From positions 32,001 through 96,000 of the forward strand of contig JBEQBC010000001.1 of the NCBI GenBank assembly GCA_041640035.1: 64,000 bases of DNA, in the 5' to 3' direction. The notes under the pieces were generated by a model. That model was not told the origin of the DNA and ran no database searches. It saw only the letters and a list, made by a program, of their open reading frames with translations. Within the stretch, counting starts at the first letter, position 1. Each line of letters opens with the position of its first letter. The DNA comes from Candidatus Nanohaloarchaea archaeon (GTDB lineage Archaea; Nanohalarchaeota; Nanosalinia; Nanosalinales; Nanosalinaceae). Position numbers and translations under genes: made by a program. Shown here piece after piece: positions 27,919 to 48,213 of this stretch.

Positions 27919-29493
27919 CTAGTCTAGGTACTTCACCATGTAAGGACCTTCACGCTCATAACCGAACTTACGGTAATACTCACGAGTCCCTACTGCCGAA
28001 ATCACGACAACTTTCTCTCTACCAAGCTCTTCAGCCTTCTCCTCAGCAGCCTTCATCAAACGCTTACCGAAGCCCTGATGCTGTACATCTCCTTCACTGC
28101 CGATATCAGTAGCAGAGCCCATAACCTTCAACTGCCTTACAATCAAAGTATCGTCATCTATCTCTTCTCTATGGCTTTCAGGCGGAGCTCTCAACCGGGT
28201 GAAACCCATTATAATATCTTTCTCAACATCTTCAAAGCTGAGGAAGAACTCTTTGCCCTCTGAAGCATCGTAAACACGCTCCAGAAGCTCCGGTTCATCA
28301 GGAACCAGGTCATGTGTTCTCTCGACATGTCCTACTTCACGGCACCGGATACATCTACATCTCTCATCCTCGCTGTGAAGCTCCTGTAAAGCCATCTGCC
28401 GCATATTCGTCAACTGAGGGCCGGCATCTACCTCTGTACTCGGTATGTCTCGCATCACGCGCTTAACCCTTACATGAGGAGGGATAATATCTTTCTGCGC
28501 CTTCTTCAAACGCTCCTTCGCTTCCTCATCGGTGATTGGTTTGAAATCTCCTTCCTCATATCTTCTATGCAGCTCTGTCCCCTCAATTACCTCACAGGGA
28601 TAGATCTTGATCTCGTCTGGCTGATAATCGCTGTTTGAAAATACTTCTTTGAACTTCTCAATATCTTTTTCATAGTCTTCTCCAGGTAGTCCAAGCATCA
28701 GGTGGTATGCAACCTTGAAACCTGCGTTCTTCAAACGCTTGGTGGCCTCAATAACGGGACCCATGCCATGACCTCTGTTAGTAATCTCATGAGTCTCATC
28801 GAAAACGGTTTGGACTCCCATCTCTACACGCGTACCGCCCATATCAAGTATCCTATCGATATGCTTAGTTTCTGCAATATCAGGCCTAGTTTCGAATGTT
28901 ACTCCTACATTTCGCACATCAGCGGTCTCGTTCTGTACCTGAGCCTCTTCAAGGCTCTCAGCTTCTTCGCCATCCTCGTAAGTATTCAAGCCATCAAAGG
29001 CTTTCTTCAGAAATGCTTCCTGGTAATCTGGATCTTGGAACGGAAAAGTTCCTCCCATGATAATTAATTTGGATTTATCGATGCTATGCCCGTTTCTCTC
29101 GTACTGTCCAAGCCTGTCATGAACTTGCTCGAACGGGTCGTAATCATTTCTTATCGCTCTTCGGGTTGCTGGCTCCTTACCTGTGTAACTCTGTGGAGCA
29201 TCCTTTCCTTTCGGGCAGTATATACATCCGCCTCCACATGCAGCTGGGCGTGCCATGATCGCAACATTCGCAATACCTGAGATGGTACGCATTGGCTTGG
29301 TCTTCAAGACTTTTTGCGCTCTTTTCTCGTCTTCCTCTGCGAATTGCAGGAGGTCTGCGTTTTTCGGAAGGCCGTCGAAACCTACTTCTCCGGCTAGCTG
29401 CTTCTTCTTGGTCTCAACATCGTCCTTGTCTTCTATCTCTTCAGATTCTATATCTTCGATTATCTCTCTGGCGATGTACTCTAGATCAGACAT
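27919..29493 (-). CDS. elp3: Elp3 tRNA U34 carboxymethyltransferase (radical SAM + GNAT)
   Basis: C...CIYCP; PQSYTG.EPA; MGGTF; ETRPD; QHQGFGKRL; GTREYYRKFGY. Confidence 0.96.
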   Translation of the reverse strand: MSDLEYIAREIIEDIESEEIEDKDDVETKKKQLAGEVGFDGLPKNADLLQFAEEDEKRAQKVLKTKPMRTISGIANVAIMARPAACGGGCIYCPKGKDAPQSYTGKEPATRRAIRNDYDPFEQVHDRLGQYERNGHSIDKSKLIIMGGTFPFQDPDYQEAFLKKAFDGLNTYEDGEEAESLEEAQVQNETADVRNVGVTFETRPDIAETKHIDRILDMGGTRVEMGVQTVFDETHEITNRGHGMGPVIEATKRLKNAGFKVAYHLMLGLPGEDYEKDIEKFKEVFSNSDYQPDEIKIYPCEVIEGTELHRRYEEGDFKPITDEEAKERLKKAQKDIIPPHVRVKRVMRDIPSTEVDAGPQLTNMRQMALQELHSEDERCRCIRCREVGHVERTHDLVPDEPELLERVYDASEGKEFFLSFEDVEKDIIMGFTRLRAPPESHREEIDDDTLIVRQLKVMGSATDIGSEGDVQHQGFGKRLMKAAEEKAEELGREKVVVISAVGTREYYRKFGYEREGPYMVKYLD

Positions 29494-46736: not shown

Positions 46737-47111
46737 TTACTCGATTGCTCGAGCGTTTATAACGCCGTCCTGTCCAGGTCGGGAAGTAATCTCTGCCTTA
46801 CCTTCGCTGGTCTGAACGATAGTACCTTTAGTTAGAAGAGATCTTCTTACAAAGTTAGGATTAGCAGGGTTCTCTTCAACTGCCTCAATCTCAACTTCCT
46901 TAACTTCTCCGTCTACAGCCAGGTTAGCTGTTTCAGCTTTCCTTACAACTGTCTTACTGTTTCCTCCTCGTGTTTCCTTGAAAACTACTTTGCTTCCGCC
47001 GAACTGAGGTTCGGAGAACTCCGATCCAATATCGTATTTACGGCTTTTTCTGTAACTACGGGTTTTACCTCCGCTCTTCTTAGTCTGAGATCGTTTATGC
47101 CAAACTGCCAT
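46737..47111 (-). CDS. rps8e: 30S ribosomal protein S8e
   Basis: K.SGG....RK.RKY..G; TRGGN.K; NPANPNFVRR..LTKG; TSRPGQDG.INA. Confidence 0.97.
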   Translation of the reverse strand: MAVWHKRSQTKKSGGKTRSYRKSRKYDIGSEFSEPQFGGSKVVFKETRGGNSKTVVRKAETANLAVDGEVKEVEIEAVEENPANPNFVRRSLLTKGTIVQTSEGKAEITSRPGQDGVINARAIE

Positions 47112-47281: not shown

Positions 47282-47521
47282 ATGGCAAATAACAGTAAAA
47301 GACCGTTCGATGTACTAGATCAGTCAAAAGGAGAAAATGTACTAATTGACCTCAAACGATTCGGAGATGAAGAGGCAACAGTTTCAGGAGAACTACAGGC
47401 ATTCGATAAACACCTGAATGTTTGGCTAGAAAACGCTTCAGTAAAAACAGATGATGGAACAACACAGTACGGGAAGCTCTTCGTAAGAGGAGACAATGTA
47501 CTGTTCGTAAGCCCAGAGTGA
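47282..47521 (+). CDS. Sm-like (Lsm/SmAP) protein
   Basis: RPFDVL; G.L.AFD.HLNV.L; FVRGDNV..VSP; upstream of rpl37e. Confidence 0.95.
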
Positions 47522-47719: not shown

Positions 47720-47869
47720 GGGCTCGTAGCTCAGTCTGGCAGAGCACCGGGCTTTTAACAACTCAAACTTAGGTTAAAAGCACTGAGCCACTTATGTGGC
47801 GATGACGAACCGTTTAACCACTACTCGGAAGAAACCCGGTAGTCGCGGGTTCAAATCCCGTCGAGCCCA
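47720..47869 (+). tRNA. tRNA-Lys(UUU) with 76-nt intron at 37/38 (47758-47833)
   Basis: Acceptor GGGCTCG/CGAGCCC; anticodon stem CCGGG/CCCGG; loop CT-TTT-A|A; T-loop GTTCAAATC; relaxed BHB (CUUU/GAAG helix, 3-nt bulges). Confidence 0.93.
47758..47833 (+). ncRNA. Intron-encoded box C/D-like guide RNA candidate
   Basis: Guide GGTTAAAAGC (47772-47781), box D CTGA (47783-47786), stem GCCAC/GTGGC, box C ATGACGA (47802-47808). Confidence 0.7.
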
Positions 47870-47917: not shown

Positions 47918-47992
47918 GGACCGGTAGCTTAGCCAGGTTATAGCGCCACGCTGATAACGTGGAGATCCCCAGTTCAAATCTGGGCCGGTCCA
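47918..47992 (+). tRNA. tRNA-Ile(GAU)
   Basis: GGACCGG/CCGGTCC acceptor; CCACG-CTGATAA-CGTGG anticodon arm; GTTCAAATC. Confidence 0.96.
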
Positions 47993-48213
47993 CTTTTCTC
48001 CGATTTCATCTGTCATCCTATTATATTACTAAAAATTTTGTTCACTGGCGGTAGGATTTGGACTGATAAAAACTTTATATGCTGCTGATTCTCGATAGAG
48101 TTGGATAGAAGAAAATATGATGAGTTGTTAGAGAAATTAGACTCTATAGAAGAGATAGCATATCCTAAGCCAAGTTAGAAAAATTTAAGTCCGTAGTAAA
48201 TGAATAAAACTGC

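What the first reader, a model, noticed from the sequence alone, without database searches (positions are those of the whole stretch)
47720..47869. tRNA-Lys(UUU) intron appears to encode a box C/D guide aimed at its own wobble U34
Seen: the 76-nt intron contains CTGA (box D), a GCCAC-TTAT-GTGGC stem, a GAT bulge and ATGACGA (box C, one mismatch to RUGAUGA), which together form a textbook C/D kink-turn. Directly 5' of box D is GGTTAAAAGC, the exact complement of G31-C40 of the spliced tRNA (GCUUUUAACC); it matches only 9 of 10 nt in the unspliced precursor. Established: under the N+5 rule the fifth nucleotide before box D marks the methylated base, and here it pairs with U34. Intron-borne guides are known for euryarchaeal tRNA-Trp (Cm34/Um39) and, as I recall, a Nanoarchaeum tRNA-Met intron; I know of no tRNA-Lys case. 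Inference: the excised, probably circular, intron is a single-K-turn guide making Um34, possibly on top of an Elp3-made cm5U (elp3 is at 27919-29493). No second convincing C/D pair is visible.
Basis: partly seen in the sequence, partly recalled or inferred. Interest (0 to 1): 0.85.

Follow-up and report, generated by a model that had tools for sequence, protein, structure and literature searches.

The report
Self-targeting methylation guide in tRNA-Lys intron
The intron of this salt-loving nano-archaeon's lysine tRNA carries a one-sided version of the RNA guide that archaea use to place a methyl group on RNA sugars, aimed at the first anticodon letter of its own tRNA, a host tRNA and a stripped-down design not found described in my literature searches.

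Summary
Window 47720-47869 (+) is a tRNA-Lys(UUU) gene with a 76-nt intron at 37/38. The intron reads guide (GGUUAAAAGC-A), CUGA, 5-bp hairpin, GAU bulge, GACGA. This is a kink-turn with a 9-10 nt antisense element whose fifth nucleotide before CUGA pairs with U34.

It is not chance. The same module sits in the tRNA-Lys(UUU) intron of 18 of 35 Nanohaloarchaeota genomes where the gene was recovered. All 18 keep the register, stem pairs covary, and guide changes keep pairing.

In the same genome the tRNA-Met and tRNA-Trp introns carry the same single module aimed at C34, a site reported methylated (Cm34) in other archaea. Fibrillarin, Nop5, L7Ae, EndA and RtcB are encoded.

The duplex is longer with the precursor in 9 of 18 genomes and with the spliced form only here. 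Introns that begin CC have compensating G's in the guide.

There is no second C/D pair, so this is a natural monopartite ("halfmer") guide. Methylation itself is untested.

Verdict: a new variant of a known kind. Confidence is about 0.7 and interest about 0.6.

The parts
47720..47869 (+). tRNA-Lys(UUU) gene with intron. It is the only UUU-anticodon Lys gene ARAGORN found in the assembly.
   Evidence: Rfam RF00005, 57.8 bits. ARAGORN -i calls Lys(ttt) with i(39,76).
47720..47757 (+). 5' exon, nt 1-37. U34 is at 47754.
   Evidence: Sequence; ARAGORN parse.
47758..47833 (+). 76-nt intron at the canonical 37/38 site. The ends could shift by 1-2 nt because A's flank both junctions.
47834..47869 (+). 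3' exon, A38 to discriminator A73.
47751..47759 (+). Target strand in the precursor: G31-A37 plus the first two intron nucleotides (A, C). It forms 9 Watson-Crick pairs with the guide.
   Evidence: duplex table. The same duplex is part of the unconstrained minimum-energy fold.
47772..47782 (+). Antisense guide GGUUAAAAGCA. Position 1 is A47782 (unpaired). Position 5 is A47778, opposite U34. G47772 pairs only with C40 of the spliced tRNA.
   Evidence: Guide positions 3, 4, 5 and 8 are invariant in 18 of 18 genomes, and changes at positions 2, 6 and 7 keep pairing.
47783..47786 (+). Box D-type CUGA, the non-bulged strand of the K-turn.
   Evidence: CUGA in 16 of 18 relatives and AUGA in 2 of 18.
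47787..47800 (+). Canonical (C) stem of the K-turn, closed as a hairpin: GCCAC-UUAU-GUGGC.
   Evidence: The first pair is G-C in 18 of 18. Stem pairs 2-4 are paired in 0.86 of cells against 0.44 with shuffled partners; 0 of 2000 shuffles reach the observed value.
47801..47808 (+). 3-nt bulge GAU followed by GACGA. The box C-type element AUGACGA spans 47802-47808. The GA at 47804-47805 would form tandem sheared pairs with the GA of CUGA.
   Evidence: Bulge is GAU in 15, AAU in 2 and UGU in 1 of 18. GA follows in 18 of 18.
47813..47819 (+). 'Anti-guide' UUUAACC, an internal look-alike of the target. It is predicted to pair with GGUUAAA of the guide in the excised intron and in the splicing-competent fold.
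   Evidence: folds. The sister genome has AGUUAAAA / UUUUAACU at the same places (read by eye), which is one compensatory change across only 2 sequences.
47828..47831 (+). GAAG, the intron strand of the 4-bp central helix of the bulge-helix-bulge splicing motif. It pairs with C32-U35 (47752-47755). The 3-nt bulges are 47756-47758 and 47832-47834.
   Evidence: Constrained fold. The 3' intron end GGAAGAU or a close variant is kept in most relatives' introns, including guide-less ones. This helix and the guide duplex exclude each other.
27919..29493 (-). Elp3 homologue. Its family is associated with xm5U34 formation (from general knowledge). This is context only.
   Evidence: Pfam Radical_SAM, Radical_SAM_C, ELP3_N and GNAT.

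Best explanation
The intron of pre-tRNA-Lys(UUU) is a natural monopartite ('halfmer') box C/D-type methylation guide built into its own substrate.

Shown by sequence and comparison:
- A 9-12 nt antisense element lies one nucleotide upstream of CUGA.
- CUGA, a hairpin-closed stem, a 3-nt bulge and GA(U/C) make a K-turn of the kind that L7Ae binds.
- The duplex places U34 opposite guide position 5.

Inferred:
- L7Ae binds the K-turn.
- Nop5-fibrillarin docks on it and 2'-O-methylates U34, giving Um34 or an xm5Um34-type nucleoside.
- This happens while the intron is still attached, within one precursor or between two precursors. The duplex extends into the first intron nucleotides.
- The guide duplex and the bulge-helix-bulge splicing motif use the same anticodon-loop nucleotides. 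The RNA must therefore refold before EndA can cut, which orders methylation before splicing.
- In this genus an internal target look-alike may help to release the guide.

The same device, aimed at C34, sits in the tRNA-Met and tRNA-Trp introns of this genome and across the phylum.
For: - Anatomy and register in the window.
- Conservation: 18 of the 35 genomes with a recovered tRNA-Lys(UUU) gene carry the module, and it is found in all five families of the phylum set. That covers all 16 complete genes recovered outside family f1, but only one genus (2 genomes) within f1. Position 5 faces U34 in 18 of 18.
- Guide substitutions keep pairing. Positions 6 and 7 vary A/G opposite U. Position 2 varies C/U opposite G31. 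Position 9 is G only in the two introns that begin with C.
- K-turn stem covariation: 0.86 of cells paired against 0.44 when partners are shuffled, with 0 of 2000 shuffles reaching the observed value. The pair next to the turn is G-C in 18 of 18.
- With the register left free within +/-8 nt, the best duplex picks nt 34 in 15 of 15 Lys, 23 of 23 Met and 10 of 10 Trp modules. None of 19 introns of other tRNAs has a module.
- The Met and Trp introns of the same genome carry the same single module with N+5 = C34. Cm34 of tRNA-Trp and tRNA-Met is reported as C/D-guided in Haloferax and Pyrococcus (passages of PMC2584109, PMC4033218).
- Fibrillarin, Nop5 and L7Ae are encoded, as are EndA and RtcB.
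- Substrate is the precursor: the duplex is longer with the precursor in 9 of 18 genomes, equal in 8, and shorter in 1. In 5 of 18 the guide follows the target after a loop of about 4 nt, my count by eye from the sequences, so the two form a simple hairpin.
- The guide duplex is part of the minimum-energy fold (-58.3 kcal/mol). The splicing-competent fold reaches -49.4 kcal/mol.
- Um34 and s2Um34 are reported in tRNAs of Sulfolobus acidocaldarius (passage of PMC7668247).
Against: - There is no direct evidence of methylation, of L7Ae binding or of expression. No RNA run held the locus.
- Only one K-turn is present. Two C/D sets are called the defining feature of methylation guides (abstract of PMC9670817), and no natural halfmer has been shown to be active.
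- The box C-type element is imperfect: 6 of 7 here and 5 of 7 in most relatives. The pair that should close the non-canonical stem (first letter of box D with fourth letter after the bulge) is C-C in 10 of 18.
- The duplex is short (9 bp, 7 of them A-U) and its first position is unpaired.
- In this genome alone the spliced tRNA gives the longer duplex.
- Most of the organism's own family does without the module (17 of 19 recovered genes), so it is dispensable.
- Relatives are not independent samples. The counts overstate the number of evolutionary events.
- The idea that Um34 stands in for 2-thiolation is not borne out as a rule. NcsA-like genes occur in 7 of 18 module-bearing genomes and are missing in 4 of 17 module-less ones.
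Confidence: 0.72

Rival explanations
1. After splicing, the excised intron (linear or circular) is the active guide RNP and methylates U34 of the spliced or mature tRNA-Lys in trans.
For: - In this genome the guide matches the spliced junction at 10 bp and the precursor at 9 bp.
- The first two intron nucleotides (AC) copy A38-C39, so most guides fit both forms. The duplex length is equal in 8 of 18 genomes.
- RtcB, which a cited title credits in Haloferax with both joining exons and circularising introns (reference list of PMC3491384), is encoded.
Against: - The spliced form is favoured in only 1 of 18 genomes. The precursor is favoured in 9 of 18.
- Introns that begin CC have compensating G or GG in the guide. 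This cuts the spliced duplex to 7 bp.
- The sister genome of the same genus has 9 bp with both forms.
- The excised intron is predicted to pair its guide with an internal look-alike of the target.
- For tRNA-Trp and tRNA-Met in Haloferax, methylation is reported to precede splicing because intron nucleotides take part in the pairing (passage of PMC2584109).
Confidence: 0.12
2. The module is a structural or regulatory element without methylation. L7Ae bound to the K-turn and the anticodon-masking duplex chaperone the precursor, time its splicing or protect the A/U-rich anticodon loop. Fibrillarin plays no part.
For: - The guide duplex competes with the splicing motif and is the more stable fold, so it must affect splicing kinetics whatever else it does.
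- There is only one K-turn.
- The non-canonical stem is poorly closed in most relatives.
Against: - A mere masking helix has no need to keep a fixed distance from CUGA. Yet nt 34 sits opposite position 5 in all 18 Lys modules, and in 15 of 15 Lys, 23 of 23 Met and 10 of 10 Trp modules when the register is left free.
- The Met and Trp sites coincide with reported Cm34 sites (passages of PMC2584109, PMC4033218).
- Nop5 and fibrillarin are retained in a genome of about 1 Mb. A simple scan of that genome finds few canonical C/D RNAs: 5 loose hits against 0-1 in shuffles.
Confidence: 0.1
3. In this genome the module is a decaying relic, or a chance look-alike, with no present function.
For: - Most genomes of the same family lack it (17 of 19 recovered genes).
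- Box C has a mismatch.
- K-turn-like strings are common by chance: 73-86 per shuffled genome.
Against: - The sister genome differs at many intron positions but keeps guide, boxes and a compensated stem (GCCAC/GUGGC against GCCACG/CGUGGC).
- Metagenome contig variants laid on the locus fall outside 47773-47790 and 47797-47809.
- Three introns in one genome show the same design.
Confidence: 0.04

Closest known systems
Intron of archaeal pre-tRNA-Trp (Haloferax volcanii; Pyrococcus sR50), a box C/D guide for Cm34 and Um39
   Same: - The guide is encoded in the 37/38 intron of the tRNA it modifies.
- It targets the wobble nucleotide by the N+5 rule.
- The pairing involves intron nucleotides, so methylation precedes splicing.
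- The guide fold and the bulge-helix-bulge fold exclude each other.
- It uses L7Ae, Nop5 and fibrillarin.
(Passages of PMC2584109, PMC7994747, PMC4033218.)
   Different: - The Trp intron is reported to hold both C/D and C'/D' sets and two guides, for nt 34 and nt 39. Here there is one K-turn and one guide.
- The host is tRNA-Lys(UUU) and the target is a wobble U.
- In this phylum even the Trp intron has the one-sided form: 11 of 11 genes.
Nanoarchaeum equitans elongator tRNA-Met intron (Randau 2012, PMC3491384)
   Same: - A 66-nt tRNA intron that accumulates as a stable RNA.
- It is described with one box C, one box D and a stable hairpin.
- It comes from a DPANN archaeon.
- This is the nearest architectural precedent.
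   Different: - The host is tRNA-Met.
- The function was only suggested, and no target was named in the passages I read.
- I did not see the figure, so I could not check the order of its parts against the module here.
Engineered halfmer (monopartite) box C/D RNAs, e.g. MMG4 (PMC9670817, which cites Yang et al. 2020)
   Same: - A guide at the 5' side, then one K-turn with a stem-loop.
- With L7Ae, Nop5 and fibrillarin these are reported to methylate 8-11-bp substrates at position 5 specifically and efficiently.
   Different: - They are laboratory constructs acting in trans with Sulfolobus proteins.
- The module here is natural and is covalently linked to its substrate.
Haloferax volcanii sR-tMet and Pyrococcus sR49, free-standing C/D RNAs for Cm34 of tRNA-Met
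   Same: - They target the wobble nucleotide of an intron-bearing precursor.
- Part of the intron takes part in the pairing (passage of PMC2584109).
   Different: - They are encoded outside the tRNA gene.
- That paper states that the Met guide is 'always exonic'. In Nanohaloarchaeota it is intronic in 23 of 24 genes by script, and in the 24th by eye; one further gene that ARAGORN misnamed also shows it by eye.
Pyrobaculum C/D sRNAs sR27 and sR46, predicted to target U34 of tRNA-Gln and tRNA-Thr (PMC6009581)
   Same: RNA-guided 2'-O-methylation of a wobble U is predicted.
   Different: - They are free-standing bipartite sRNAs.
- They target other tRNAs.
- tRNA-Lys is not named in the passages found.

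Membership tests
Box C/D methylation guide RNA (archaeal C/D sRNA) | Box C (RUGAUGA) and box D (CUGA) that form a K-turn: canonical stem, 3-nt bulge, tandem G.A pairs | tested here: met
   - AUGACGA matches 6 of 7; CUGA matches 4 of 4.
- 5-bp stem and GAU bulge.
- GA follows the bulge in 18 of 18 relatives, and the stem covaries.
- The fold itself is inferred from sequence.
Box C/D methylation guide RNA (archaeal C/D sRNA) | A second C'/D' set, giving a bipartite RNA with two K-turns or K-loops | tested here: not met
   - There is no second CUGA/UGAUGA pair in the 76-nt intron.
- In relatives only 6-46 nt follow box C before the exon, and they include the splice motif.
- Some relatives carry a GA-flanked hairpin inside the stem that might be a second K-turn. 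This intron does not.
Box C/D methylation guide RNA (archaeal C/D sRNA) | Antisense element directly upstream of box D, with the target nucleotide opposite position 5 | tested here: met
   - 9 bp with the precursor and 10 bp with the spliced tRNA; position 5 faces U34.
- Conserved in 18 of 18.
- nt 34 is also chosen when the register is left free.
Box C/D methylation guide RNA (archaeal C/D sRNA) | Partner proteins L7Ae, Nop5 and fibrillarin in the same genome | tested here: met
   PF01248 94.2 bits, PF01798 166.3 bits and PF01269 229.8 bits. Nop5 and fibrillarin are adjacent on contig C5.
Box C/D methylation guide RNA (archaeal C/D sRNA) | 2'-O-methyl present at the predicted nucleotide; RNP assembles on the RNA | not testable with these tools
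   No RNA reads were available for the locus. This needs RiboMeth-seq, LC-MS or reconstitution.
Intron-encoded pre-tRNA guide (tRNA-Trp type) | The guide lies in the canonical 37/38 intron of the tRNA that it targets | tested here: met
Intron-encoded pre-tRNA guide (tRNA-Trp type) | The pairing includes intron nucleotides, and the guide fold competes with the bulge-helix-bulge splice motif | tested here: met
   - The duplex runs into intron nt 1-2 here and up to nt 5 in relatives, with compensating changes.
- The GAAG/C32-U35 helix with two 3-nt bulges is incompatible with the guide duplex.
Intron-encoded pre-tRNA guide (tRNA-Trp type) | Two guides, for nt 34 and nt 39 | tested here: not met
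   Only nt 34 is addressed. There is no box D after the stretch 3' of box C.
tRNA (Rfam RF00005) | Cloverleaf covariance model above the gathering score | tested here: met
   57.8 bits against a gathering score of 29.

The most novel reading that the evidence does not exclude
Nanohaloarchaeota build natural one-K-turn ('halfmer') methylation guides into the introns of three precursors: Lys-UUU, elongator Met and Trp. The guides act on the very molecule that carries them.

The guide:anticodon duplex and the splice motif would form a two-state switch, so that wobble 2'-O-methylation is a checkpoint that must be passed, or released, before EndA can cut.

For tRNA-Lys the product would be an (xm5)Um34. 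In lineages without an NcsA-type thiolase, this genome included, it would supply the rigid C3'-endo wobble sugar that s2U34 supplies elsewhere.

This would be the first natural monopartite C/D RNP and the first RNA-guided modification of the tRNA-Lys wobble base.
Probability: 0.3. Interest if true: 0.8.

Novelty: new variant of a known kind. Interest (0 to 1): 0.62.

Why it matters
**What the searches found in print.** The papers I could search describe intron-borne methylation guides for tRNA-Trp, plus one suggested case in the tRNA-Met intron of Nanoarchaeum. One review passage states that Met guides are always exonic (PMC2584109).

**What is new here.**
- A third host, tRNA-Lys(UUU), is added.
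- The target is a wobble uridine whose modification state governs the reading of AAA/AAG codons.
- A whole phylum uses a one-sided guide for Lys, Met and Trp. Two C/D sets are called the defining feature of such guides (abstract of PMC9670817), and halfmers were known to me only as laboratory constructs.

**What it makes testable.**
- Whether archaeal Nop5-fibrillarin works on one K-turn in vivo.
- Whether such guides act in cis.
- Whether methylation gates tRNA splicing.

**Practical point.** ARAGORN's default run missed this gene, and with introns allowed it misnamed the tRNA-Trp gene. Automatic annotation may therefore overlook these tRNAs.

Tried and rejected
**RNA evidence.** The one run search found 20 runs that hold at least part of the locus, with only one on record as RNA. 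That was a poly-A library with a 0.04 share of the words, and nothing from it could be laid on the locus. Splicing, circular junctions and expression could not be examined. The skips in table 5 come from DNA contigs of other organisms' tRNA-Lys genes and say nothing about splicing.

**MAFFT alignment of 8 short-hairpin modules (A1).** It misaligned the 3' stem halves, so I did not pass it to the count of structure pairs or build a covariance model. I anchored the stems on the boxes in a script instead.

**Target scoring with G-U pairs allowed and any tRNA position as target.** It gave runs of 9-12 by chance and was useless. It was replaced by a test tied to nt 34 and a free-register test within +/-8 nt.

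**Um34 as a replacement for s2U34.**
- PF01171 (NcsA-like) scores above its cut-off in 7 of 18 module-bearing genomes and 13 of 17 module-less genomes.
- One such ORF has NcsA as its best NCBIfam match, at 258.5 bits. This is below the 500-bit equivalog cut-off.
- The trend runs the right way, but both traits co-occur in families f2, f4 and f5, and both are missing in genera g2, g13 and g16.
- I rejected it as a rule and keep it only as a possibility for this genus.

**Free-standing Lys-U34 guide in family members that lack the intronic one.** Pattern TTAAAAGGNMTGAG hit 3 of 50 genomes, and the reversed control also gave 3 hits. This is chance level. The test is narrow.

**Scan of 185,579 species genomes.**
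- The pattern was exon end, a gap of at most 32 nt, guide and box D.
- It gave 9 loci, all from genomes already in the phylum set.
- One record bears the title of a Colwellia MAG but matches G001.
- Guides far from the exon, or other exon sequences, would be missed.

**Canonical bipartite C/D sRNAs in the genome.** The scan gave 5 loose matches against 0-1 in shuffles, and none is textbook. It is a crude regular expression, not evidence of absence.

**Literature.**
- Searches found no paper describing a C/D guide in a tRNA-Lys intron, or any study of tRNA introns in Nanohaloarchaeota.
- 'box C/D' cannot be typed as a search term, so coverage is imperfect.
- Clouet-d'Orval 2001 was not held. 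Joardar 2011 turned up only as a citation in other papers and was not read.
The target tables of PMC6009581 and the intron lists of PMC2584109 may name further tRNA targets that I could not see.

Full report
**What is there**

Window 47720-47869 (+) is a tRNA gene. Rfam's tRNA model scores 57.8 bits with a 77-nt insertion after position 37. The default ARAGORN run missed the gene. It is the only Lys gene with a UUU anticodon that ARAGORN found in the assembly. A separate intron-less Lys(CUU) gene exists.

The intron (47758-47833) reads, in order:
- ACAACUCAAACUUA;
- GGUUAAAAGC, then A;
- CUGA;
- GCCAC-UUAU-GUGGC;
- GAU, then GACGA;
- ACCG-UUUAACC-ACUACUC;
- GGAAGAA.

The one correction is that a single A separates the 10-mer from CUGA. 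Counting that A as position 1, position 5 faces U34 (47754), so the N+5 reading is right.

**Is it more than chance?**

The boxes alone are not informative. A loose pattern for 'CUGA or AUGA, hairpin, bulge, GA' occurs 115 times in the 0.98-Mb genome, against 73-86 times in shuffles.

The combination is what counts. Among those 115 hits, the three with the longest Watson-Crick duplex placing position 5 on nt 34 of any tRNA are the three that lie inside tRNA introns, each with its own host:
- Lys, 9 bp;
- elongator Met, 8 bp;
- Trp, 7 bp;
- the next best hit has 6 bp.

ARAGORN misnames the Trp gene as Arg(cct) because it places the intron inside the anticodon. The precursor reads CCA.

**Relatives**

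The genome belongs to a phylum represented by 70 genomes in five families. Record titles of matching contigs name Candidatus Nanohalarchaeota, Nanoanaerosalina and Asbonarchaeaceae.

A complete tRNA-Lys(UUU) gene was recovered from 35 genomes, and one more was cut by a contig end.
- 18 genomes carry the module. These are this genome and its sister (family f1, genus g1), 1 of f2, 6 of f3, 8 of f4 and 1 of f5.
- That covers every complete gene recovered outside f1.
- The other 17 genes are all in f1. Eleven have unrelated introns and six have none.

In all 18 module-bearing genes, position 5 faces U34.
- Guide positions 3, 4, 5 and 8 never vary.
- Positions 6 and 7 vary A/G opposite U35 and U36.
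- Position 2 varies C/U opposite G31.
- Box D is CUGA in 16 and AUGA in 2.
- The bulge is GAU in 15, AAU in 2 and UGU in 1.
- GA follows the bulge in 18 of 18.

The stem between the boxes changes sequence and length, from a 12-nt to a 92-nt span, but stays paired.
- The pair next to the turn is G-C in 18 of 18.
- Pairs 2-4 are standard pairs in 0.86 of cells, against 0.44 when partners are shuffled among sequences. None of 2000 shuffles reaches the observed value.
- These sequences are related, so the shuffle figure is not a probability.
- Five different pair types at pair 2 and four at pair 3 show repeated compensated change.

A pattern joining exon end, guide and box D hits 10 of the 70 genomes, and its reversed control hits none. 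In 185,579 species genomes it found only these same organisms.

**The design is the lineage's standard**

The same one-sided module is present in elongator tRNA-Met introns and in tRNA-Trp introns, always with position 5 on C34.
- Met: 23 of 24 distinct genes by script. The 24th, whose hairpin exceeded my span limit, shows it by eye, as does one further gene that ARAGORN misnamed.
- Trp: 11 of 11 genes.

When the register is left free within +/-8 nt, the best duplex picks nt 34 in 15 of 15 Lys, 23 of 23 Met and 10 of 10 Trp modules. The 15 Lys modules are those that passed that script's stricter stem and parsing filters. None of 19 introns of other tRNAs in the loci I held has a module. Those are Ile-GAU 5, Lys-CUU 6, Ser 4, Val 3 and one mis-parsed gene.

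Cm34 of tRNA-Trp and of elongator tRNA-Met is reported as C/D-guided in Haloferax and Pyrococcus (passages of PMC2584109 and PMC4033218). Two of the three modules therefore point at sites reported as methylated in other archaea. This is the strongest indirect argument that the Lys module does the same to U34.

**Machinery**

All of the following are encoded in the genome:
- fibrillarin (229.8 bits) and Nop5 (166.3 bits), adjacent on contig C5;
- L7Ae (94.2 bits);
- the splicing endonuclease EndA and the ligase RtcB.

A crude scan for canonical two-sided C/D sRNAs gave only 5 loose matches against 0-1 in shuffles. The intron modules may therefore be a large part of what this machinery serves here. 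That scan is weak evidence.

**Which molecule is the substrate?**

That holds for this genome only.
- Across the 18 genomes the duplex is longer with the precursor in 9, equal in 8 and longer with the spliced form in 1.
- The intron normally begins AC, which copies A38-C39. This explains the ties.
- In the two genomes whose intron begins CC, the guide has G or GG at the facing positions. This gives 8 and 9 bp with the precursor but only 7 bp with the spliced tRNA.
- In several genomes the pairing runs on to intron nt 3-5, giving 11-12 bp.
- In 5 of 18 the guide follows the target after a loop of about 4 nt, so target and guide form a plain hairpin. I counted this by eye from the sequences.

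The comparison therefore favours pairing within, or between, unspliced precursors. This matches what is reported for tRNA-Trp and tRNA-Met in Haloferax (passage of PMC2584109). Cis and trans action between precursors cannot be told apart here.

**Coupling to splicing**

The conserved 3' end of the intron (GGAAGAA here, GGAAGAU in most relatives) supplies GAAG. GAAG pairs with C32-U35 to make the 4-bp helix of a bulge-helix-bulge motif. The 3-nt bulges are U36-A37-i1 and i75-i76-A38, and they place the cuts at the annotated junctions.

This helix and the guide duplex use the same anticodon-loop nucleotides.
- The unconstrained minimum-energy fold contains the guide duplex and the K-turn stem (-58.3 kcal/mol).
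- Forcing the anticodon stem plus the splice helix gives -49.4 kcal/mol.

The naked precursor should therefore rest in the guide-paired state and must be remodelled to be spliced. This is an inference from folding energies.

In this genus the stretch after box C contains UUUAACC (47813-47819), a look-alike of the target. It pairs with the guide in the excised intron and in the splice-competent fold. The sister genome has AGUUAAAA / UUUUAACU at the same places (read by eye). That is one compensated change in two sequences, so it is only a hint.

**One K-turn only**

Two C/D sets are called the defining feature of methylation guides (abstract of PMC9670817).

Against that, two points from papers:
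[quoted passage not shown] The module therefore works like a C/D guide and fails one membership criterion of the canonical family. I file it as a new variant.

**What Um34 would be for**

- Elp3 is in the window, so an xm5U34 is plausible. This rests on general knowledge of Elp3.
- A review passage states that s2U and Um both favour the C3'-endo sugar and stabilise codon pairing about equally (PMC4033218).
- Um34 and s2Um34 are reported in S. acidocaldarius tRNAs (PMC7668247).
- NcsA is needed for thiolated tRNA-Lys(UUU) in Haloferax (PMC4048286).
- This genus has no NcsA-like match above the Pfam cut-off, nor has family f3.
- Families f2, f4 and f5 have both the module and NcsA, and three f1 genera have neither.

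Substitution of Um for s2U is possible here but is not a general rule.

**Limits**

- Everything rests on sequence, comparison and folding energies.
- No RNA data were available.
- Contig variants from metagenomes spare the guide and the boxes. They largely reflect the sister lineage.

Noticed in passing
L053 (G000:C3:18293-18459) and L054 (G000:C1:252267-252404), outside the window: The elongator tRNA-Met (94-nt intron) and tRNA-Trp (64-nt intron) genes of the same genome carry the same one-sided guide-AUGA-hairpin-GAUGAUUA module, with position 5 on C34. The design is conserved in relatives: Met in 23 of 24 genes by script, Trp in 11 of 11.
   Followed up: yes
L054 (G000:C1:252267-252404): ARAGORN calls this gene tRNA-Arg(cct) because it places the intron inside the anticodon. 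The precursor reads CCA and relatives are called Trp. The default ARAGORN run also missed the tRNA-Lys gene in the window altogether.
   Followed up: yes
Relatives' introns: L013, L015, L020, L026, L027 (Lys); L066, L069, L072, L077 (Met); L094, L096, L097 (Trp). Also guide-less introns: L014, L016, L022, L024, L030 (Lys), L072 (Val), and the own tRNA-Ala(CGC) gene at G000:C3:105090-105220: A recurring two-hairpin insert. Hairpin A is of the type GGCUUCUC..GAGAUGCC. Hairpin B is of the type GA-GAAGNNN..NNNCUUC-GA, flanked by GA on both sides. The flanks could form tandem G.A pairs, that is, a second K-turn or k-junction and a possible second L7Ae site. The insert sits inside the K-turn stem in many guide introns, and it also occurs in introns without any guide.
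   Followed up: no
window 47813-47819: UUUAACC after box C mimics the anticodon-loop target and is predicted to pair with the guide in the excised intron. The sister genome (L005) shows a compensated version of the pairing.
   Followed up: partly
L057-L063 (tRNA-Met introns of family f1): The loop of the K-turn hairpin (UUCUGGA) is complementary to UCCAGAA in the 3' tail of the same intron. In L062 the two are swapped (CCAGAA in the loop, UUCUGG in the tail). This suggests a conserved long-range pairing or pseudoknot.
   Followed up: no
L017 (G012, tRNA-Lys(UUU) intron, 87 nt): This guide-less Lys intron still contains CUGA and a perfect box C (GAUGAUGA). The stretch before CUGA is not complementary to the anticodon loop, so it may address another target.
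   Followed up: no
L044 (G033, tRNA-Lys(CUU), 91-nt intron): The intron has GAGAGC, complementary to its own CUU anticodon loop, with G opposite C34. It is followed by irregular boxes: UGGA instead of CUGA, and a 7-nt stretch instead of a 3-nt bulge before AAUGAUC. The register would fall on nt 35. It may be a decayed or shifted relative of the Lys(UUU) module.
   Followed up: no
L019 / L035 (G031), just downstream of tRNA-Lys: An extra piece resembling a tRNA 3' half lies after the complete gene. It consists of a hairpin of type B, then a T arm and an acceptor 3' strand identical to those of tRNA-Lys.
   Followed up: no
L032 / L038 (G028, family f5): This tRNA-Lys(UUU) gene seems to have a second intron of about 43 nt in the T arm, in addition to the guide-bearing one at 37/38. 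ARAGORN mis-parses the gene.
   Followed up: no
L034 (contig JBLGBK010000006.1): The record is titled as a MAG of Colwellia polaris. Its tRNA-Lys gene and intron are identical to those of L005 (G001, the sister nanohaloarchaeal genome), and its contig length equals that of G001:C6. The label looks wrong.
   Followed up: no
Phylum set: NcsA-like PP-loop proteins (PF01171 above the cut-off) were not found in any of the 10 genomes of family f3, nor in genera g1, g2, g13 and g16 of family f1. They were found in most other genomes.
   Followed up: partly
L055 (G000:C1:142233-142309) and L056 (G000:C2:80795-80833): Two further K-turn-like hits lie outside tRNA genes. One has AUGA, an 8-bp stem and GAUGAUUU. 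The other has a guide that would give 6 Watson-Crick pairs around U34 of tRNA-Thr(UGU). Their coding context and targets were not examined.
   Followed up: no
window 46737-47111 (-), 47282-47521 (+), 47918-47993 (+): Neighbours of the tRNA-Lys gene are ribosomal protein S8e, an LSM (Sm-like) protein and, 48 nt downstream, tRNA-Ile(GAU). In several relatives tRNA-Ile(GAU) also follows tRNA-Lys and itself carries a 60-75-nt intron without a K-turn module.
   Followed up: partly
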